64,000 bases of DNA from an uncultured Candidatus Rokubacteria bacterium (GTDB lineage: Bacteria; Methylomirabilota; Methylomirabilia; Rokubacteriales; CSP1-6), in assembly GCA_963747235.1 (NCBI GenBank), contig CAVVEU010000004.1, positions 64,001 through 128,000 on the forward strand. The letters run 5' to 3'. Under the pieces are notes generated by a model. That model saw only the letters and a program-made list of their open reading frames with translations, searched no databases and was not told the origin of the DNA. This document shows positions 21,198-28,881 of this stretch, one piece after another (the first letter of the stretch is position 1; each line of letters opens with the position of its first letter). The position numbers and the translations under genes are program-made.

Positions 21198-21217
21198 AGG
21201 CCTCCTCGGGGCGCTAT

Positions 21218-22456
21218 TCACAGAACTTGCACGGGGGGATGTTGCGATCGTAGGCCGGTCCCTTGAGATACTCGTCCTGCTTGTAGGTCCAGAACTGCGA
21301 GACGTTCGGATAGGTGTGGACGACGGTGTTCTGGAGCTTGCCCGCCCACCCGCTCCACCTTGCGGACGTAGACGTTCTGGATCGGGTTGTTCAGCTCGTC
21401 CATCTTCATGGGGCCGCGCGGGTCGTCGGTGATCGCCACCTGTCGGAGGGCGGCGACGAACTTCTCCTTGTTCTCGGCCTCGCCGTTGATCGCCTTGAGC
21501 GCCTCGTAGTAGAAGCGGGCGCCGGTGTAGCCCTGGGCGGAGTAGAGCGAGGTGCTGCGGCCGAAGCGCTTCTCGTAGGCGGCGGCGAACTTCTTGTTGG
21601 CCGGGGTGTCGAGCGCGGCACTGTAGTGCAGCGAGGTGATCACTCCGATCGCCTCGTCGCCCATGGCCTTGAGCACGTTCTCGTCGGTGAGGGTGCCGAC
21701 ACCGACGAGCGGCATCTTCTCCTTGAGGCCGACGTCGTTCCAGGTCTTGACGAAGCGGGGCGAGAGGCCGCCGGTGTGGCAGGCGAAGACCCCGTCGATG
21801 TCCTTCTTGAGCGACGCGAGGAACGGCGCGTAGTCCTGGATGTTGAGCGGCGTCCAGATCCGCTGCACCACCTTGCCGCCCAGGTCCTCGAACACGCGCT
21901 GGAAGCCCGCGTTGGTCTCCCAGCCGAACGCGTAGTCCATGCTGATCGTCGCCATCCGCCGCAGCTTGAGCTGCTTGTAGGCGTAGTCCCCGAGCGGATG
22001 GGTCATCTGGCTGCCCGAGGCCGAGGTGCGCACGATCCAGCGCACCGGCTTGCGCTGCGTGATGTCGTCGGGCGCGGTGATCGGGTAGACCGTCGGGATC
22101 TTGTTCTGCTCGATGTAGGGCACGAGCGCGTAGCCGGTGGCGGCCAGGAGCCCACCCGCGATCGTGTGCACCTTCTCCTGCTCGACCAGGCGCCGCACCT
22201 TGGTGAGGGCGCCGGTGGGCTCGGGGTCGGAGTCCTCGACGATGACCTTCACCTCGCGGCCCGCGACCTTGTTGCCCACCTCTTCCCAGAAGAGGTTGAA
22301 GCCGTCGGTCATGTCCTTGCCGGTCTGGGAGAAGTTGCCGGTGAGCGGACCGAAGTAGCCGATCTTGATCGGCTCCGCGCCACGGGCCCGGGAAGGCCGG
22401 ACCGCGGCGGCCGCCGCGGCGCCGCTCAGCGCCACCAGGAACTGTCGCCTCTGCAT
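21218..22456 (-). CDS. Branched-chain amino acid-type ABC substrate-binding protein, Tat signal
   Basis: MQRRQFL, IKIGYFGPLTG, DPRGPMKMD; paralog of 18849-20085. Confidence 0.9.
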   Translation of the reverse strand: MQRRQFLVALSGAAAAAAVRPSRARGAEPIKIGYFGPLTGNFSQTGKDMTDGFNLFWEEVGNKVAGREVKVIVEDSDPEPTGALTKVRRLVEQEKVHTIAGGLLAATGYALVPYIEQNKIPTVYPITAPDDITQRKPVRWIVRTSASGSQMTHPLGDYAYKQLKLRRMATISMDYAFGWETNAGFQRVFEDLGGKVVQRIWTPLNIQDYAPFLASLKKDIDGVFACHTGGLSPRFVKTWNDVGLKEKMPLVGVGTLTDENVLKAMGDEAIGVITSLHYSAALDTPANKKFAAAYEKRFGRSTSLYSAQGYTGARFYYEALKAINGEAENKEKFVAALRQVAITDDPRGPMKMDELNNPIQNVYVRKVERVGGQAPEHRRPHLSERLAVLDLQAGRVSQGTGLRSQHPPVQVL

Positions 22457-22556
22457 GGGGACGCCTCCTCTTCGGTGAGGGGAAACGGGTGCTCGCGCCG
22501 CTACACTAGGGATGGCCCTCTCATTTGTCAACCTTCGGACGGTGACTGGCGCGGGC

Positions 22557-22586
22557 TTGACAGGGTTCCGGGCGAGCTAGCACAGT
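22557..22586 (+). promoter_or_regulatory. Sigma-70 promoter, probably leaderless
   Basis: TTGACA-18nt-CACAGT, 7 nt before ATG 22594. Confidence 0.55.
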
Positions 22587-22593
22587 CGGGCCC

Positions 22594-23751
22594 ATGCTCA
22601 ACGCCACCCGCGACCTCGTCCTGCCCACCACCATCACCGGCTCCTATCCGCGCCCCCACTGGTTCACCGAGGAGCTGCGCGGGCGGGGCTTCAAGGACGC
22701 GCTGGGCGATTCCCGCTTCCGCGAGCAGTACCTGGACGCGGTGGCCTGCCTGGTGCGCGAGCAGGAGATGGCCGGGCTCGACTTCGTCACCGACGGCGAC
22801 TCCCGGTTCGACCTCACGGTGGGCGGCAAGTCGTGGTTCTACTACGTGATCGAGCGCCTGAACGGCATCACCGGGGCCCAGGACCGCTCCACCGGCGGCG
22901 GCTGGAAATCGCTCCGGCCCGGCCACATCCTCTACGAGGTGATGGAGGCCTACCAGCCCGCGGTGGTGGGGGCCAAGCTCACGGGCGGCGCGCTCCAGTA
23001 CGCGGCCCTCTTCAAGACCGCCCAGCGGCTCGCGAACAAGCCGGTGAAGTTCGGCGCGATCACCGCCCAGTCGCTCGCCAAGATGCTGGTGGATCGCCAC
23101 TACGGCGGAGACCGCGACGTGATCCTGGCCCTGGCCGACATCTTCAACGCGGAGCTCAAGGAAGTCGCCGCCGCGGGCTGCCGGGTCATCCAGGTGGAGG
23201 AGCCGCAGCACCACATCGCGGGCGCCATCGGCGCCTCCGACAAGGACCTCGAGTTCTACACCGAGTCGGTGAATCGCGAGATCGCGGGGGTGAACACCGA
23301 GATCTGGCTGCACACGTGCTGGGGCAATCCGAACCAGCAGCCGCTGCACTGGGAGCGGCCGTCCTACGAGCGGTCGCTGCCGTATCTGCTGGCCACCAAC
23401 GCCGACGTGCTCACGCTCGAGTGCGCCTCCACCAACGGCCGCGACCTGCCGCTGCTCGGGAAGCACCGCACCGACAAGAAGATCGCCATCGGGGTCGTGA
23501 ACCACTCCACCGCGGCGGTGGAGCCGCCCGAAGTGGTGGCGAACCTGATCCGCAAGGCGCTGGAGTACGTGCCGCCGGAGCGGCTGATCCTCAGCACCGA
23601 CTGCGGCTTCGGCCGGGAAGGGCTGGCGCGCCGCATCGCGTTCTACAAGAGCGTGGCCATCAATCTGGGCGCGAACATCGTGCGCCGCGAGCTGAAGCTG
23701 CCGGAGGTGGAGATTCCCGCCGCCGATCCGCGCTTCACCTTCGCGGGCTGA
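22594..23751 (+). CDS. Cobalamin-independent methionine synthase II family protein (MetE C-terminal half only)
   Basis: TTITGSYPRP, VTDGD, HTCWGN, LECA, STDCGF Zn ligands. Confidence 0.9.
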   Translation: MLNATRDLVLPTTITGSYPRPHWFTEELRGRGFKDALGDSRFREQYLDAVACLVREQEMAGLDFVTDGDSRFDLTVGGKSWFYYVIERLNGITGAQDRSTGGGWKSLRPGHILYEVMEAYQPAVVGAKLTGGALQYAALFKTAQRLANKPVKFGAITAQSLAKMLVDRHYGGDRDVILALADIFNAELKEVAAAGCRVIQVEEPQHHIAGAIGASDKDLEFYTESVNREIAGVNTEIWLHTCWGNPNQQPLHWERPSYERSLPYLLATNADVLTLECASTNGRDLPLLGKHRTDKKIAIGVVNHSTAAVEPPEVVANLIRKALEYVPPERLILSTDCGFGREGLARRIAFYKSVAINLGANIVRRELKLPEVEIPAADPRFTFAG

Positions 23752-23760
23752 CCAACTCTT

Positions 23761-23798
23761 CCCCTCTCCCCTCTGGGGAGAGGGCAGGGTGAGGGGGG
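23761..23798 (-). repeat. REP-like palindrome, copy 2
   Basis: CCCTCTCCCC-TCT-GGGGAGAGGG-CAGGGTGAGGGG. Confidence 0.85.
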
Positions 23799-23802
23799 TT
23801 CT

Positions 23803-24753
23803 ATGCCGACCATCAAGGTGCGAGACCTGGCCTGGGTGAGGCTGCGGGCGCCGGACCTGGACGCGATGGAGGAGTTCCTCACCCACTTCGGCCTCACGCG
23901 CGCCGCGCGCACGCCGAAGGCGCTCTACATGCGCGGGACCGACCCGGTCCACCACCTCCACGTCACCGAGAAGGCGGACGACGCCGGCTTCGTGGGCTTC
24001 GCCTACCACGCGGCGGGCGAGGGCGACCTGGCGCGGGTGGCGACGGCGCCCGGCGCCTCCGCGGTCGAGGCGATCGACGAGCCGGGCGGCGGCCGGCGGG
24101 TCCGCCTGCGCGAGCCCAACGGCTACCAGATCGAGGTGGTGTGGGGCCTCGAGGCGCCGGCGCCGATCCCGGTGGACTACACCCCGATGAACACCGGCGC
24201 GGAGCCCCTGCGGCGCGCGGGGACGCTGATGCGGCTGCGCAAGTCGCCCACCCCGATCAAGCGGATCGGCCACGGGGTCTTCGGCACGCCGCGCGTCGTC
24301 GAGACCGCACGGTGGTTCCGCGACACGCTGGGCTTCATCGGCTCGGACGACGTGTACGTGGGGACCAAGGACCACATCATCGGCTCGTTCAACCGCTGCG
24401 ATCGCGGGGACGAGTACGTGGATCACCACACGATGTTCTGCGTGATGAACGAGCGGGCCGGCATGAACCACGTCTCGTTCGAGGTGCCGGACGTGGACGC
24501 GGTGTTCAAGGACCACGAGTACCTGGCCGGGCTCGGCAAGTACGAGCACATGTGGGGCGTGGGGCGGCATCTCCTGGGCAGCCAGGTCTACGACTACTGG
24601 GCCGACCCGTGGGGCCGTGTGCACGAGCGGTGGGCGGACACCGACCGGCTGAACGCCCGGAGCGGCTCCAATCTCCTGTCCGCGGAAGAGGGGCTGGTGA
24701 GCCAGTGGGGCGAAGATCCACCGGAGCGATTCCTCCGGCACGTGACGACGTAG
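23803..24753 (+). CDS. VOC family extradiol dioxygenase-like protein
   Basis: Two VOC modules, RIGH, DHH, NHVSFEV, WGVGRHLLGSQVYDYW.DPWG..HE. Confidence 0.88.
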   Translation: MPTIKVRDLAWVRLRAPDLDAMEEFLTHFGLTRAARTPKALYMRGTDPVHHLHVTEKADDAGFVGFAYHAAGEGDLARVATAPGASAVEAIDEPGGGRRVRLREPNGYQIEVVWGLEAPAPIPVDYTPMNTGAEPLRRAGTLMRLRKSPTPIKRIGHGVFGTPRVVETARWFRDTLGFIGSDDVYVGTKDHIIGSFNRCDRGDEYVDHHTMFCVMNERAGMNHVSFEVPDVDAVFKDHEYLAGLGKYEHMWGVGRHLLGSQVYDYWADPWGRVHERWADTDRLNARSGSNLLSAEEGLVSQWGEDPPERFLRHVTT

Positions 24754-25112
24754 CGCCGCTCGCGCGGCTGCGGCGCATCTGCCTCGCGCTGCCGGGGACC
24801 GGCGAGAAGGTCTCCCACGGCGAGCCCACGTTCTGGGTGGGCGGGCGCATGTTCGCCACCTTCGACAACCACCACCACGGCGCCCCGCACGTGGGCGTCT
24901 GGCTCGCGATGCCGCTCGGCGCGCAGGAAGCCCTCGTCTACCAGGACCCCAAGCGCTTCTTCGTGCCGCCCTACGTGGGCACCGCGCGGCTGGGTCGGCG
25001 TGCGCCTCGACGGGCGCCCGAGCTGGAAGGGGGTGAGAAGGTAGTCCGCGAAGTCCTACGCCTTCATCAAGAACAAAAACCCTCTCCCCCGGAGGGGGAG
25101 AGGGCAGGGTGA
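24742..25112 (+). CDS. MmcQ/YjbR family protein; frameshifted, ends approximate
   Basis: LRRICLALPG..EK.SHGEPTF.V, RFFVPPYVG..GWVG. Confidence 0.8.
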
Positions 25113-25117
25113 GGGGG
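25080..25117 (-). repeat. REP-like palindrome, copy 3
   Basis: CCCTCTCCCCC-GGA-GGGGGAGAGGG-CAGGGTGAGGGG. Confidence 0.85.
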
Positions 25118-25132
25118 CGCGCAGCCAGCCCG

Positions 25133-25881
25133 CTACGACCAGACCTCCGTCGGGAACGGCAGCCCCTCGAGGTCGGCGTCGGTGAGCGGCGCGTCCTTCT
25201 CCACGCCGCAGCTCGTCGAGGAACCAGTAGATCTGCCGCAGGTGCTGGGCCGAGTGCCACGTCGTGCGCTCCATGAACTCGGGCGCCGACTGCGGGCCGT
25301 AGTAGGTGCTCACCTCGCCGTCGCACCAGCCGGGCCGCGCGAAGTAGGCCCGGAGCCGCTGGCGGACCGTCTCCCCGTAGCGCGCCACCGCGTCGCCGTC
25401 CGCCATCTCGGGCGGCGCGTTCTCCTCGAACCACGCCCCGTCGAGGTTGCCCTGCTCGCGCGTGTCCGCGTACGAGGCGGCGACCCGGAACACGTGGAAG
25501 CCGAGCTGGTGCACGGTCCGATCGCGCCCCGGGTACTTCATGCCGAGGTGCTCGCGCGGCACCTGCCGGATCGCCCGCTGGGTCGCGTCCAGGACGACGT
25601 CCATCCGCTCGGCGAGCTGGGCCGGGCTCAGCTTCTTCGGCGCGCGGTAGCGCACGCCCGACCAGCTCGGCCAGCGCCTGCGGGTTCCAGCCGTGCACGA
25701 TGCGCTCGCCCACGATGGTGGCGGGCACGCGCATCACGCCGAACGCTTCGAGGTCGGCCCGGCGCTCCGGCTGAGCCTCGACGTCGAAGCCCTCGAAGGC
25801 CACTCCCCATGACGAAAGCAACTCTTTCGTCTTGGCGCAGGAGCTTCAGCCCTGGCGGTAGTAGACGCGCGCGCGGTCCAT
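25133..25881 (-). CDS. Predicted selenoprotein: glutaredoxin (UxxC)-DinB fusion
   Basis: MDRARVYYRQG-TGA-SSCAKTKELL...RVPATIVG...HGWN, then a DinB domain with HVF and WHSAQH. TGA at 25846-25848. Indels near 25655 and 25208. Confidence 0.82.
25802..25844 (-). promoter_or_regulatory. Bacterial SECIS-like stem-loop
   Basis: GACGAAAG-AGUUG-CUUUCGUC (25811-25831), extended by CCA/UGG and CUCC/GGAG; loop starts 22 nt after the UGA. Confidence 0.75.
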
Positions 25882-25931
25882 GGCCTTCCCACTATACCCC
25901 GGCCCGCGGTGATCCTGGAAGGCGGGCCGGG

Positions 25932-27292
25932 TCACTCCACGGGCCCGATGCCGCGGCGGCGGAAGATCCGCCTGAGGATGGCCGCGTGCCGCCCTCGGTA
26001 GAGGTTGCGGTCGGCGTCGAGCATGGACCGCGCCCCGCGCGCGAAGGTGGTGAAGCCGTCGAGCTGGAAGTGGCTCTCCACGATGATGCGATCCGCCACG
26101 GGCCGCCCGGTTGCCTTCCAGATGTCCCACAGCGTGGCCGACCAGATCTGGCCGTTGTCGTGCTCGTCGGCCCGCGGGCCGTGGTCGAAGCTCTCGTAGG
26201 TGAGGCGCGAGTCGACCCGCCGGACGCAGGGCGGGTTGCCGTCGCCGAGCGCGCCGTCCCAGCTCATCACCGCCTCGACGTACGGGTCCCGCTTCTTCGC
26301 GGCGAAGAAGCTGGCCGCGAAGTAGTCGCCGAACCCTTCGCCCATCGCGGCCGCCTCCGGTGACTGGCCGAAGTCGGGGCAGATGGCGTCCTGGAGCGCG
26401 TGCCCGAACTCGTGGAGCACGGTCTCGCCGTCCTCCGCGTCGTCCACGTCGCCGGTGCCGAAGGTCAGGGTGCGCTCGCCCGGGCTGTACCACGAGTTGT
26501 CGTCGCGGGTGCCGCGCGCGTCCACCTCGAGAGGCCGCCGGAACAGGCGACGCGCACCCCGGTAGCCGAGCGTCTCGAGGTAGGCGATGGCCTCGTTCAC
26601 GTGGTAGTAGGCCGAGGCCTCCTCGAAGCCGGCGCGGAAGCGCGGCACCGAGAAGTCGAGCCGCGCGCTGCGCAGGCGCTTCGTTGTCAGCCGCGTGGTG
26701 ACCCGCCGGCCGTCCAGTCGGCTGTTGCCACGCAGGCCGGTGAGCTTCACGTCGACGTAAGCGGTCGCCGGCGGGCGCCGCACCCGGTCGGCCTCGTTGA
26801 GCGGCTCGAAGTCATGCGCCCGGGCCATCGGATTCGGCAGGAACACCATCGCGCGCCCCGTCGCCTCGGCGAGGTTGTCGTACCGGCTGAGGATGCTGCC
26901 GGTCACCGCGTGCACGTAGGTGATGACCTCCGAGCGGGGCCTGGTGCGGTGGATCCGCACGCGCCAGGCCGGATGCAGCAGCCGCTTGGCCGGGTACCAG
27001 AGCAGCTCCGGCTTGCCGACCACCCACGCGCGCCCCCGGCCGCGTCCCCCGCCCGCGAACGCCGCCCGCACCGCCGTCTCGCCCGCGAGGCGGGGCTCCT
27101 CGGTCTTGCGGAGCACGTCGTCCGGCACAGCCCGGCTCTTCACCAGGTACACCCGCCGGTCGCCGATGTGCACGGTGACGTAGGCGCGGTGAATGCGGCG
27201 GCGGCGCCAGAGCTGCTGGAGGTGACGTGGCGGCCGGGGCCGGGCGCGGCGCACCCGGCGCGACGACCGCCGGAGCGCGTGACGCGCCGCAT
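25932..27292 (-). CDS. M36/M4-type zinc metallopeptidase; N-terminus frameshifted
   Basis: SAYYH, DNSWYSP, ETVLHEFGH, AMGEGFGDYFA, DEHDNGQIW. Confidence 0.85.
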
Positions 27293-27305
27293 GGTCCGGG
27301 TCGCC

Positions 27306-28881
27306 TCAGGACCGGGCGAGCCCGAACGCCTCCGCGTAGCGCCGCCACGCGTCCAGGTGGCTGCCGTACTTGCGGTGCCCCGCGGTGTGCTTGGCGGAGG
27401 CGAAGAGCAGGCGGTCGCGCTCCTCCGCGGTCGAGTGGCCGTAGTCGTCGAGCAGGCAGATGCCCAGCTCCTGGTTGTGCGGGTCGTTGCCCGCCTTGGC
27501 CGCGCCCACCGCGAGGGTCTGCAGCAGCGGCGCGCGGTCCGCGCCGTCGCGGAGGTAGGCGGCGACCCAGTCCATGGCCTCGAAGGCGCGCAGGCCGTCG
27601 AGCGCGCTGTCGAGACGCTTGAGCACTTCCGACGAGGTCAGCGCCGTCGGAGCCCTTGGGCGGCGCGATCTTCACCGGGTTGTTGTCCGGGGTGTGCTTC
27701 TGGTGATGCGCCGCGCGGGTGACGAAGGCGGCGGCCACGAAGAGGAGCTTGAGGCGGTGCGGGTGCTGGAACGTGTCGAAGAACCAGCGCACCGTGTTGC
27801 AGTACTCGTAGCTGTGCTGCGGCATCGAGTAGCCGTTGACGTCGCCCGTCTCGATGATGAGCTGCGCGGAGGCGAGCTGGATCGTGTCGATGATCTGGCG
27901 ATGACCCCGCCCGGCCTTGAGCAGCGCCACGAGCAGGTCGATGAAGGCCGGCTCCTGGCCGCTCAGGATCGCCTGCTGCAGCGCGAGCGACTCGACGGGG
28001 GTGAGCGCCGTGTCGTTGGCGAGCAGCTCGCGATCGCGATTGTCGAGCAGGTTCTGGACCACCAGGCAGCCCATCTCGTAGGTCGAGTACCAGCGGGGCC
28101 CCACCGCGATGTCGGGCACGCCCGCGTACAGGATCGAGTGCGCGTGCTGCCAGCCCACCGCGCGGGCCACCTCCACGGTGGCGCGGGCACGGTAGGACTT
28201 GTGCCCGGTGGTGTAGGAGCGGTTGTGCAGCACGCGGTCCTGCACGTCGATGAGGCCGGCGAACACGAGCTGGGCGAGCAGCGGGGTGCGCTTCGCCTCG
28301 TCGTCCACCGCCTCCTCCCACAGGCCCAGGAAGACGCGATAGGCGTTGATGACCTCGCCGCGCTGCACGAGCGTGAGCCACGTGTTGAGCCGCTCCGGCC
28401 ACGTGCCCTCGATGGCCAGCGGCTCCTGGTCCGGCCAGTGCACCTCGGGCAGGGGCGGCTTGCCCTCGAACTTGATCTCGTAGAGCCGCACGTAGTGCCC
28501 CGGCATCTTGCCGATGAGCTGGTTCCACGGATCGAGGCCCGTCGGCATGTACCAGATGGTCTGGGCGTAGGGCAGGTAGGCCAGCTCGGGCGGCATCAGC
28601 GGCATCAGGTCGAGGCTCGCGCGCGAGCTCAGCAGGCAGTGGTCGTTGTTGACGAACCGCGGCACGCCGTCGTCGAGGCGCTGGTGGTACGGCACGTGCG
28701 TGTAGGGCGCGTGGATGCGCACGATCTGGCCGGCCAGCTCGGCGAGCGGGACCTGCGCCCGCACCAGGTCGTAGAAGATGTCGCTGGCCGCCTTCTGATC
28801 CCGCTCGAGGATCTTGTTCTCGAGCCGCGCATAGGCAGTGCTGATCTCGGGACGCACGGACCGGTCGACGGAGGTGGCCAT
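27306..28881 (-). CDS. Hypothetical helical protein (~520 aa) with repeated His motifs; frameshift near 27640
   Basis: Long high-GC3 ORF, AAAGGAG RBS, NNDHC, TGHKSY, PQHSYE, DPHNQE. Confidence 0.8.

What the first reader, a model, noticed from the sequence alone, without database searches (positions are those of the whole stretch)
25802..25896. Hidden selenocysteine recoding: in-frame UGA in a UxxC motif with a SECIS hairpin
Seen: on the minus strand, ATG 25881 reads MDRARVYYRQG-TGA-SSCAKTKELLSSWGV, so the TGA sits exactly where the first Cys of a glutaredoxin CxxC would be. A perfect 8-bp stem, GACGAAAG-AGUUG-CUUUCGUC, follows with lower-stem extensions, and its loop starts 22 nt after the UGA with GU at loop positions 2-3. 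Codons across the stem (AAA, TTG, CTT, TCA) break the high-GC3 usage of the region, suggesting RNA-level constraint. A TATAGT -10 box lies just upstream. Known: this geometry fits the bacterial SECIS consensus read by SelB. The ORF track misses the N-terminus entirely.
Basis: partly seen in the sequence, partly recalled or inferred. Interest (0 to 1): 0.9.

Follow-up and report, generated by a model that had tools for sequence, protein, structure and literature searches.

The report
Selenocysteine glutaredoxin-DinB fusion gene
The in-frame TGA is a genuine selenocysteine codon, with its RNA hairpin signal, in a glutaredoxin-like domain fused to a DinB-type domain; related soil bacteria share this gene, and gene callers cut it short at the TGA.

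Summary
On the minus strand, ATG 25881 opens a frame with TGA at 25848-25846, in the first position of a UxxC motif of a glutaredoxin/NrdH-like domain (Pfam PF00462). An 8-bp stem with loop AGUUG begins 22 nt after the UGA.

The TGA is not an error or a pseudogene lesion. It sits at the same column in 78 of 79 match rows in 41 related genomes and in 80 of 80 loci from a species-wide scan. Cys (TGC) homologs occupy that column. The hairpin is kept with compensatory changes and meets all four published bSECIS criteria. The genome holds tRNA-Sec, selA, selB and selD.

The gene is a 248-aa fusion of a Sec-glutaredoxin-like domain and a DinB/YfiT four-helix-bundle domain, ending at TAG 25135-25133. 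The window copy also carries two private 1-nt insertions (about 25657 and 25206). These are most likely assembly indel errors: 5 of 5 isolated non-triplet indels in 4.7 kb are private to this assembly.

Verdict: a real, canonical Sec-recoding site in a fusion I found in no paper or curated model. It is a new member of a known kind.

The parts
25133..25881 (-). Whole selenoprotein gene: Sec-glutaredoxin-like domain fused to a DinB-like domain. It is 248 aa in intact orthologs. Start ATG 25881-25879, stop TAG 25135-25133. This copy is read in three frames because of two extra bases.
   Evidence: Three-frame translation compared with 222-aa database homologs and full-length orthologs. DNA alignment to three orthologs.
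25846..25848 (-). Sec codon UGA, first residue of the UxxC motif (U12-S-S-C15).
   Evidence: TGA at this column in 78 of 79 rows and 80 of 80 loci. TGC at this column in L057 and L076.
25807..25835 (-). bSECIS hairpin. 3-bp lower extension (25835-25833 with 25809-25807). 8-bp upper stem (25831-25824 with 25818-25811). 5-nt apical loop AGUUG (25823-25819).
   Evidence: energies. RNAalifold finds the same helix. 99.3% of 297 cells are paired, with compensatory changes at 2 of 11 pairs, against 35-58% paired when the 3' partner is slid.
25654..25881 (-). Glutaredoxin/NrdH-like thioredoxin-fold domain (about residues 1-76).
   Evidence: Pfam PF00462 at 40.6 bits, cut-off 22.9. PDB profile hits to glutaredoxin and NrdH. 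Foldseek NrdH 1h75 TMt 0.83, cGrx1 7c10 TMt 0.90.
25657..25659 (-). First frame break: GGG run where three orthologs have GG (one extra base). It lies between ...ALAELVG and VRYRAPKK...
25205..25209 (-). Second frame break: one extra base after ...IYWFLDEL. The true C-terminus GVEKDAPLTDADLEGLPFPTEVWS lies in the third frame.
25133..25655 (-). Linker plus DinB/YfiT-like four-helix-bundle domain, with invariant His127, His207 and His211 (ortholog numbering of alignment A2).
   Evidence: Pfam DinB_2 at 22.4 and 19.3 bits, below the 24.8 cut-off. AF2 model pLDDT 89.7. Foldseek 6iz2 DinB/YfiT TMt 0.82, plus 3dka and 1rxq. Invariant columns.
25079..25105 (-). Intrinsic-terminator-like hairpin with a T-run, 28 nt after the TAG stop.
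   Evidence: 3 overlapping sites found against 0.3 expected.
25891..25896 (-). Not supported as a promoter.
   Evidence: One search shows the hexamer. One search finds no sigma-70-like site. One search shows it is not conserved in orthologs.

Best explanation
The minus-strand gene 25881-25133 encodes a selenoprotein of about 248 aa.

How the UGA is read. UGA 25848-25846 is recoded as selenocysteine by the standard bacterial route. A coding-region SECIS hairpin (25835-25807; 8-bp upper stem, loop AGUUG, 22 nt after the UGA) would be bound by SelB carrying Sec-tRNA(Sec), which delivers Sec to the ribosome. All four machinery genes are in the genome.

What the protein is. Sec is the N-terminal, attacking residue of a UxxC redox motif in a glutaredoxin/NrdH-like thioredoxin-fold domain. 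A linker of about 10 residues (between helices H65-72 and H84-103 of the model) joins it to a DinB/YfiT-type four-helix bundle with a conserved three-His site.

Inferred function (not shown). The protein is a redox enzyme in which the tethered selenoredoxin forms and resolves a selenenyl-sulfide with Cys15. It would service thiol-dependent chemistry at the metal site of the DinB domain.

The frame breaks. The two frame breaks in this copy are most likely indel errors of this assembly, so the organism's gene is probably intact.

Shown: the codon, its conservation, the Cys homologs, the hairpin and its covariation, the machinery genes and the two-domain fold.
Inferred: actual Sec insertion, SelB binding, the catalytic role, and the error origin of the frameshifts.
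For: 1. Conservation of the TGA.
- With the 77-aa Grx part as query, 39 of 41 related genomes match. 78 of 79 listed rows contain exactly one TGA. The single exception has TGC.
- With a full-length ortholog as query, 162 of 251 genomes of the phylum match: family f1 137/158, f4 21/21, other families 3/71. Every listed row that spans residue 12 has one TGA except G207:C139, which is a Cys form.
- All 80 of the best 80 loci from the species-wide scan have TGA at the column.

2. Coding constraint on both sides of the TGA in one frame.
- Arg at codon -3 is invariant through 5 different codons, and Gly at -1 is invariant.
- Orthologs run as a single ORF from the start to ...EVWS-stop.
- The Pfam Glutaredoxin match (residues 6-61) spans the TGA.

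3. The hairpin.
- RNAalifold recovers the same helix independently.
- 99.3% of cells are paired. Pair 34:46 changes AU to CG in 6 rows, and pair 35:45 alternates between AU (12) and GC (14).
- 0 of 500 shuffles reach the observed pairing or covariation score. Slid controls give 35-58% paired.
- Rare codons are kept in the stem.
- All four bSECIS criteria quoted in the Fig. 2 legend of PMC13188914 (passage read) are met: loop 5 nt, stem 8 bp, G at loop position 2 followed by U, spacing 22 nt, MFE -8.9 / -13.1.

4. Machinery. tRNA-Sec, selB and selA lie together on contig C14, and selD on C27.

5. A second gene with the same signal. A stand-alone Grx-like gene in the same genome has TGA in the same motif position and a near-identical hairpin.

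6. Fold. AF2 pLDDT 89.7, pTM 0.81. NrdH/Grx and DinB/YfiT are the top structural matches.

7. Frameshifts as errors.
- In a 4-way alignment of window 21210-25870, 5 of 5 isolated non-triplet indels are private to the window, and none is private to the three relatives.
- selD matches are split between frames.
- A lone private insertion at 27645 breaks another gene.
Against:
- The covariation rests on few independent events. The paired changes coincide with amino-acid changes (Lys to Arg, Ser to Ala), the sequences are related, and 5 of 11 pairs never vary.
- In the 75 loci whose hairpin was folded, 3 fall short of -7.5 kcal/mol. Some variants (GACGAAGG...CUCUCGUC) have an internal mismatch.
- selD, which is needed for the pathway, shows frame breaks in this assembly. 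If those are real, the pathway would be impaired.
- This copy itself has two frame breaks, so a pseudogene in this one organism is not excluded.
- The DinB assignment is below Pfam's cut-off by sequence and rests on a predicted fold.
- The proposed catalytic cooperation of the two domains is inference. Gene neighbours are not conserved: the best clusters occur in 17 and 14 of 80 loci.
Confidence: 0.9

Rival explanations
1. The family is a selenoprotein, but this particular copy is a decaying pseudogene. On this reading the two 1-nt insertions are real and the protein is not made in this organism.
For: There are two frame breaks relative to all orthologs. Reads could not be examined.
Against: - Apart from the two extra bases the copy is 88-99% identical in protein to intact orthologs, with no further stop or decay.
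- All 5 isolated non-triplet indels in 4.7 kb are private to this assembly, hit several genes and spacers, and include a G-run expansion. None is private to the three relatives.
- selD is also split between frames.
Confidence: 0.08
2. The TGA is an ordinary stop. On this reading a tiny upstream ORF ends there, and the real protein starts downstream (TTG 25821 or a later GTG/ATG), as the 222-aa database entries are called.
For: Gene callers produce exactly this: most of the best 120 database homologs are 222 aa and start after the TGA.
Against: - The 7 codons upstream are under amino-acid constraint in the same frame.
- The glutaredoxin domain would lose strand beta-1 and the first redox residue. 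The Pfam match and the AF2 fold both span the TGA.
- Cys forms read straight through the column.
- A conserved, covarying hairpin built from rare codons sits at SECIS distance.
Confidence: 0.02
3. The UGA is read through but not as Sec. Candidates are Trp or Cys by near-cognate suppression, or a reassigned code.
For: No direct chemistry is available. Bacterial UGA is the leakiest stop (recalled).
Against: - TGA is used as a stop by the neighbouring peptidase gene (25934-25932).
- A complete Sec machinery is present.
- The column is Cys in homologs and is the redox-active position.
- The hairpin matches bSECIS criteria.
Confidence: 0.02
4. The TGA is a base-call or assembly error for TGC/TGT.
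For: This assembly is error-prone for indels.
Against: TGA is at the same column in 80 of 80 independently assembled loci and in 78 of 79 rows among relatives. The errors seen in this assembly are indels, not substitutions.
Confidence: 0.005

Closest known systems
Glutaredoxin (Grx) selenoproteins, Pfam PF00462, UxxC motif. They are listed as experimentally supported in PMC13188914 and PMC9312934 (table passages read). The Clostridium Grx work of Kim et al. 2011 is cited there; I did not read that paper.
   Same: Thioredoxin-fold glutaredoxin domain. Sec is the first residue of UxxC at the start of helix 1. A coding-region bSECIS follows directly downstream. Cys homologs exist.
   Different: Here the redoxin is the N-terminal domain of a 248-aa fusion with a DinB-like bundle. 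By NCBIfam it is nearer to the NrdH and YruB-type redoxins than to classical Grx, and it reaches no model's cut-off. The lineage is Rokubacteria/Methylomirabilota-type soil bacteria, not Clostridia.
NrdH-redoxin and YruB-family glutaredoxin-like proteins (TIGR02194, TIGR02196; PDB 1h75, 4hs1, 4fiw)
   Same: Best sequence and fold matches for residues 1-76. About 75 aa in size, with a CxxC-type motif after strand beta-1.
   Different: Scores are far below the equivalog cut-offs: 35.7-39.2 against 85.75, and 50.8-54.8 against 88.55. Sec replaces the first Cys. The domain is fused to a second domain.
UXX-star and other Grx-like selenoprotein families of NCBIfam (NF041212, NF041211, NF047338)
   Same: Small Grx-like domain with Sec in the redox motif. 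Weak matches, E 3e-8 to 2e-3.
   Different: Below the cut-offs (30-34 bits against 66). In those families the Sec lies near the C-terminal end (this meaning of the name is recalled). Here Sec is at residue 12 and 236 residues follow.
DinB/YfiT (S-transferase-like) superfamily: DR0053 (6iz2), YjoA (3dka), YfiT (1rxq). Members include bacillithiol transferases (abstract of PMC5815605 seen in the listing).
   Same: Four-helix-bundle fold, TMt 0.61-0.82. His residues are conserved on the first and last long helices.
   Different: No member with a fused selenoredoxin turned up in the searched literature. Sequence similarity is marginal (DinB_2 19-22 bits, cut-off 24.8). Substrate and metal are unknown.
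E. coli fdhF/fdnG SECIS (the model bacterial SECIS)
   Same: Hairpin directly downstream of the UGA inside the ORF. G-U in a small apical loop. Spacing is within the 16-37 nt of the consensus model.
   Different: The sequence is unrelated. No bulged U in the upper stem is evident (that E. coli feature is recalled). Rfam has no matching family: 0 hits.

Membership tests
Bacterial selenoprotein gene (Sec-UGA plus bSECIS) | In-frame TGA aligned with Cys in homologs (Sec/Cys pair) | tested here: met
   L076 (fusion form, TGC) and L057 (stand-alone Grx-like, TGC) have Cys at the same column.
Bacterial selenoprotein gene (Sec-UGA plus bSECIS) | TGA-containing orthologs in other Sec-utilising organisms | tested here: met
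   78 of 79 rows. 80 of 80 loci. Every listed row spanning residue 12 bar one.
Bacterial selenoprotein gene (Sec-UGA plus bSECIS) | bSECIS model: apical loop 3-9 nt and upper stem 4-16 bp | tested here: met
   Loop 5 nt and stem 8 bp. Criteria as quoted from PMC13188914.
Bacterial selenoprotein gene (Sec-UGA plus bSECIS) | At least one G in the first two loop positions, mostly followed by G or U | tested here: met
   The loop is AGUUG, with G at position 2 followed by U. In more distant orthologs the loop is AGCUC, so the G is kept.
Bacterial selenoprotein gene (Sec-UGA plus bSECIS) | 16-37 nt between the UGA and the apical loop; MFE <= -7.5 kcal/mol | tested here: met
   22 nt. MFE -8.9 for the core and -13.1 with the extension. 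72 of 75 folded loci pass the energy criterion.
Bacterial selenoprotein gene (Sec-UGA plus bSECIS) | Genome encodes selA, selB, selC (tRNA-Sec) and selD | tested here: met
   all over the curated cut-offs. The selD matches are split between frames in this assembly.
Bacterial selenoprotein gene (Sec-UGA plus bSECIS) | Selenium actually incorporated at the UGA | not testable with these tools
   Needs 75Se labelling, mass spectrometry or a reporter assay.
Glutaredoxin (Pfam PF00462) | Score over the Pfam gathering threshold | tested here: met
   40.6 bits (window copy) and 41.3 bits (ortholog) against 22.9.
NrdH (TIGR02194) / YruB-type (TIGR02196) / Uxx-star (NF041212) | Score over the NCBIfam curated cut-off | tested here: not met
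   35.7-39.2 against 85.75. 50.8-54.8 against 88.55. 30.2-33.8 against 66.
DinB superfamily (Pfam DinB_2, PF12867) | Score over the Pfam gathering threshold | tested here: not met
   22.4 and 19.3 bits against 24.8.
DinB superfamily (Pfam DinB_2, PF12867) | Four-helix-bundle DinB/YfiT fold | tested here: met
   AF2 model pLDDT 89.7. Foldseek 6iz2 TMt 0.82, 3dka 0.74-0.77, 1rxq 0.61, all with probability 1.00. This is a predicted structure, not a solved one.
DinB superfamily (Pfam DinB_2, PF12867) | Conserved metal-binding His triad | tested here: inconclusive
   H127, H207 and H211 are invariant in 29 sequences. That they correspond to the DinB metal ligands is recalled and inferred. I could not read model coordinates.

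The most novel reading that the evidence does not exclude
The Sec-redoxin/DinB fusion would be an undescribed selenoenzyme family. It is near-universal in two families of one bacterial order. A selenoredoxin is tethered to a DinB-type metal and thiol site, so that Sec takes a direct part in the chemistry of a DinB-fold enzyme. One example would be resolving a mixed disulfide or a conjugate with an unknown low-molecular-weight thiol. That would give the poorly understood DinB superfamily a built-in redox partner, and give this lineage a marker selenoprotein that current annotation truncates.
Probability: 0.35. Interest if true: 0.6.

Novelty: new member of a known kind. Interest (0 to 1): 0.42.

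Why it matters
- Annotation. The gene is systematically mis-annotated. Most of the best 120 database homologs are 222-aa proteins that begin after the TGA, and one is named only "DinB family protein". The redox centre of a lineage-wide protein is therefore invisible in current databases.
- Function. The covalent pairing of a selenoredoxin with a DinB-fold domain is a concrete, testable clue to what at least one branch of the large and mostly uncharacterised DinB/S-transferase-like superfamily does.
- Method. The hairpin adds a well-conserved, covarying bSECIS example from an uncultured soil lineage. That lineage's phylum is reported as selenoprotein-rich (PMC13188914, passage read).
- Limits. 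It does not change the understanding of Sec decoding. Mechanism and motif are canonical.

Tried and rejected
- Rfam. No family matches 25000-26000 at E <= 1.
- Promoter. No sigma-70-like two-hexamer site in 24900-26100.
- NCBIfam. No model reaches its cut-off for the full-length ortholog or for the 77-aa window part.
- Gene neighbourhood as a clue to function. Flank ORFs of 80 loci were clustered. The largest real clusters are a PAS-HisKA-receiver protein (17 of 80 loci) and an FGE-sulfatase-domain protein (14 of 80). Two bigger clusters are GC-rich spurious ORFs that overlap the gene itself. I rejected this as a basis for function.
- rpoB and rpoC as sensors of assembly frameshifts. The rpoB match stops at position 868 of 1238 and rpoC was not found. 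This is uninterpretable because 16,000 bases of the genome are withheld. The 4-way alignment replaced it.
- First taxon guess. I took the lineage for Dormibacterota from one database name (P0028) and dropped that: 51 of 80 record titles name Rokubacteria, Rokuibacteriota, Methylomirabilota or Methylomirabilia. Several other titles clash with the same-genus placement.
- Literature.
  - DinB is absent from the main text of two selenoproteome reviews, the deep-Sep paper and the BSepDB paper (find mode).
  - None of the 8 listed of 9 papers holding both "DinB" and "selenocysteine" concerns such a protein, judged by titles and abstracts.
  - "Dormibacter" plus "selenocysteine" gives 0 papers.
  - "Rokubacteria" plus "selenocysteine" gives 3 papers, and "Methylomirabilota" plus "selenoprotein" gives 3. 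None describes this protein by title or abstract. Of these six I opened only PMC13188914.
  - The groundwater-MAG study cited as ref. 66 in PMC13188914 was not in the library, and supplements are closed. It or supplementary tables may already list this gene under "Grx". "Not in print" therefore holds only for these searches.
- Domain geometry. The distance between Sec12 and the His site in the AF2 model could not be measured because coordinates are not exposed. No claim is made that the domains touch.
Full report
**1. The observation**

- ATG 25881-25879 and TGA 25848-25846.
- The second redox Cys, TGC 25839-25837.
- An 8-bp perfect stem, GACGAAAG (25831-25824) with CUUUCGUC (25818-25811).
- Loop AGUUG (25823-25819). 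Its first base lies 22 nt after the UGA, and G and U are loop positions 2 and 3.

With TGA read as U the frame gives MDRARVYYRQG-U-SSCAKTKELLSSWGV.... Pfam Glutaredoxin matches residues 6-61 across the TGA at 40.6 bits, cut-off 22.9.

The 71-nt stretch folds into this hairpin at -30.9 kcal/mol (z = -2.76; 1 of 200 shuffles folds as well). The 21-nt core alone gives -8.9 kcal/mol. With a 3-bp extension (CCA/UGG) it gives -13.1.

The TATAGT hexamer exists (25896-25891). No two-hexamer promoter-like site was found, and the hexamer is not conserved in close orthologs.

**2. Is the TGA real and meaningful?**

The genome that holds the window is a 42-contig, 5.57-Mb genome, 88% complete. It encodes:
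- tRNA-Sec (Rfam 69.3 bits; ARAGORN tRNA-SeC, anticodon tca);
- selB (365 bits) and selA (578 bits), next to the tRNA on one contig;
- selD (228 bits).

All are over the curated cut-offs.

*Conservation among relatives.* Searching 41 related genomes with the 77-aa N-terminal part gave matches in 39. Of the 79 listed rows, 78 contain exactly one TGA. The exception, G036:C10, has TGC at the same column and no hairpin.

*Conservation across the phylum.* A phylum-wide search with an intact full-length ortholog matched 162 of 251 genomes: family f1 137/158, f4 21/21, all other families 3/71. Every listed row spanning residue 12 has one TGA, bar one. Three of the 162 genomes are unpublished (G116, G232, G233). 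The exception, G207:C139, is a Cys form of the same fusion (LFCRRG-C-SSC...). It sits in a genome that also carries the Sec form.

*Conservation species-wide.* A scan of one genome per species found 403 stretches encoding a relative. All 80 of the best 80 loci have TGA at the column.

*Coding constraint upstream.* The seven codons before the TGA are under protein-level constraint in the same frame. Arg at -3 is invariant through five different codons, and Gly at -1 is invariant.

A sequencing error, a private nonsense mutation and a true stop between two genes are therefore all excluded or very unlikely.

**3. The hairpin**

In 30 orthologs the 42 nt after the TGA are almost frozen within the genus, while flanking synonymous sites vary.

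In more distant orthologs the stem changes by paired substitutions. Pair 34:46 goes from AU to CG (6 rows). Pair 35:45 alternates AU (12) and GC (14). Pair 36:44 goes from AU to GU.

RNAalifold recovers the same 8-bp helix plus the 3-bp extension independently.

Counting on distinct rows, 99.3% of 297 cells pair. None of 500 shuffles reaches the observed pairing or covariation score, and sliding the 3' partner drops pairing to 35-58%.

Caveats:
- 5 of 11 pairs never vary.
- The events are few, and the rows are related.
- The paired changes coincide with Lys-to-Arg and Ser-to-Ala replacements.

GC3 is 0.62 in the eight stem codons against about 0.94 elsewhere. AAA, TTG, CTT and TCA are each rare in the rest of these genes, at 3-12% of their amino acid's codons.

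The element meets all four constraints of the consensus bSECIS model as quoted in the Fig. 2 legend of PMC13188914 (passage read):
- loop 3-9 nt and stem 4-16 bp;
- G in the first two loop positions;
- 16-37 nt spacing;
- MFE <= -7.5 kcal/mol.

Of the 75 loci folded, 72 pass the energy criterion.

A motif search of the whole genome finds the same hairpin type in exactly two places. One is this gene. The other is a stand-alone Grx-like gene (G000:C8:315014-315229) that also has TGA in the redox motif.

**4. What the gene really is**

The frame that contains the TGA never terminates properly in the window; it runs on for more than 1,000 codons of GC-rich noise. A DinB_2-like ORF (25655-25056) overlaps it in another frame.

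Database homologs of that ORF are mostly 222 aa. They begin inside the glutaredoxin domain, just after the TGA. In other words, they are truncated gene calls of a fusion.

In every ortholog examined the gene is one ORF of about 248 aa: N-terminal UxxC redoxin, a short linker (…ALAELVGVRYRAPKKL…), a DinB-like domain, and the C-terminus …LPFPREVWS.

The window copy differs by two private single-base insertions:
- one in a G run at 25659-25657;
- one at about 25209-25205.

The true stop is TAG 25135-25133. A terminator-like hairpin follows at 25105-25079.

**5. Are the frame breaks real?**

In a four-way alignment of window 21210-25870 with three same-genus genomes, there are five isolated indels whose length is not a multiple of three. 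All five are private to the window (21341, 23799, 24981, 25206, 25657). None is private to any of the other three genomes.

A further private insertion at 27645 splits another gene. The selD matches of this genome also fall into two and three frames.

Roughly one lone indel per kilobase, spread over genes and spacers, is the signature of assembly indel error rather than of gene decay. I put about 0.9 on error, but reads could not be checked.

**6. Structure and likely function**

An AlphaFold2 model of an intact ortholog, built with a 29-sequence alignment, has mean pLDDT 89.7 and pTM 0.81.

Foldseek matches:
- the first about 76 residues to NrdH and glutaredoxins (1h75 TMt 0.83; 7c10 0.90; 3zit 0.87);
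- the rest to DinB/YfiT bundles (6iz2 TMt 0.82; 3dka; 1rxq).

Whole-length hits to GSTs have rmsd above 10 Å and mean nothing.

Invariant residues include G9, U/C10, S11, S12 and C13 of the redox motif, and H127, D137, H207 and H211 in the bundle (A2 numbering).

DinB/YfiT-type proteins include bacillithiol transferases of the S-transferase-like superfamily (abstract of PMC5815605 seen in the listing).

My best reading is inferred, not shown. Sec12 attacks a disulfide or thiol conjugate, Cys15 resolves the selenenyl-sulfide, and the redoxin works in cis with a metal- and thiol-dependent reaction on the DinB domain.

Gene context gives no help, since no neighbour is conserved in more than 17 of 80 loci.

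**7. Comparison with what is known**

Glutaredoxin with UxxC (PF00462) is already on the list of bacterial selenoprotein families. The Methylomirabilota phylum has been reported as very selenoprotein-rich: one MAG has 63 predicted genes (PMC13188914, passages read).

The record titles of the relatives mostly name Rokubacteria or Methylomirabilota (51 of 80).

The decoding mechanism is canonical. What I could not find in print is the fusion with DinB:
- the word is absent from the main texts of two reviews, deep-Sep and BSepDB;
- it is absent from selenoprotein papers generally;
- no NCBIfam model reaches its cut-off.

Supplements are closed, and the large groundwater-MAG survey (ref. 66 of that review) is not held. 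Prior listing under "Grx" cannot be excluded.

**8. Verdict**

This is a real selenocysteine codon with a functional-looking, conserved SECIS.

It is a new member (a fused architecture) of a known kind, not a new mechanism. The window's copy is broken only by what are very probably assembly errors.

Interest is moderate. The value lies in annotation repair and in a functional lead for DinB-fold proteins, not in surprise about recoding.

Noticed in passing
G000:C8:315014-315229 (locus L056), outside the window: A second selenoprotein gene in the same genome. It is a stand-alone Grx-like protein of about 80 aa (…VFSSPT-U-GPCKAAKEYLSS…) with a near-identical hairpin, GGCGAAAGAGUAUCUUUCGUC. Orthologs in most relatives also carry TGA. 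One relative (G036:C10, L057) has TGC and no hairpin.
   Followed up: partly
window 21341, 23799, 24981, 25206, 25657, 27645: Lone single-base indels private to this assembly relative to same-genus genomes, about one per kb. The one at 27645 splits the gene at 26812-28881 from its continuation in ORF 27306-27626. The selD matches elsewhere in the genome are also split between frames. Gene calls from this assembly should be treated as frameshift-prone.
   Followed up: partly
window 25898-25931 (minus strand): A perfect 10-bp GC-rich inverted repeat, CCCGGCCCGC (25931-25922) with GCGGGCCGGG (25907-25898), and a 14-nt loop. It starts right after the TGA stop of the upstream peptidase gene and ends just before TATAGT. 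It may be a T-run-less terminator or a regulatory hairpin. This was read only.
   Followed up: no
window 25932-27254 (minus strand): The upstream gene encodes a fungalysin-type M36 metallopeptidase domain (Pfam PF02128, E 2.5e-10), which is mostly known from fungi.
   Followed up: no
loci L121 and 13 others of L081-L160: In 14 of 80 loci an FGE-sulfatase-domain protein (PF03781, E 2e-49) lies convergently downstream of the Sec-Grx/DinB gene. DinB plus FGE-sulfatase domains together make up EgtB/OvoA-type sulfoxide synthases (recalled), so a link to thiol-histidine or seleno-histidine chemistry is conceivable. The association is weak.
   Followed up: partly
window 25079-25105 and relatives: The terminator-like palindrome GCCCTCTCCCCCTCCGGGGGAGAGGG is conserved downstream of the gene in relatives. 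A similar peptide signature (…TLPSPPPGERVF… / …TLPSPQRGEGKS…) appears twice in the long spurious ORF. This hints at a repeated palindromic element in this genome.
   Followed up: no
loci L081, L083-L085, L088: Record titles of genomes that the genome search places in the window's own genus carry conflicting submitter labels: Limnocylindria, Deferrimicrobiaceae, Nitrosotalea, Acidoferrum, Verrucomicrobiia. Taxon names on these MAG records are unreliable.
   Followed up: no
G000:C24:133232-136003: The rpoB match covers only positions 3-868 of 1238, and rpoC was not found in the genome. The cause is either the withheld 16,000 bases or further frame breaks.
   Followed up: no
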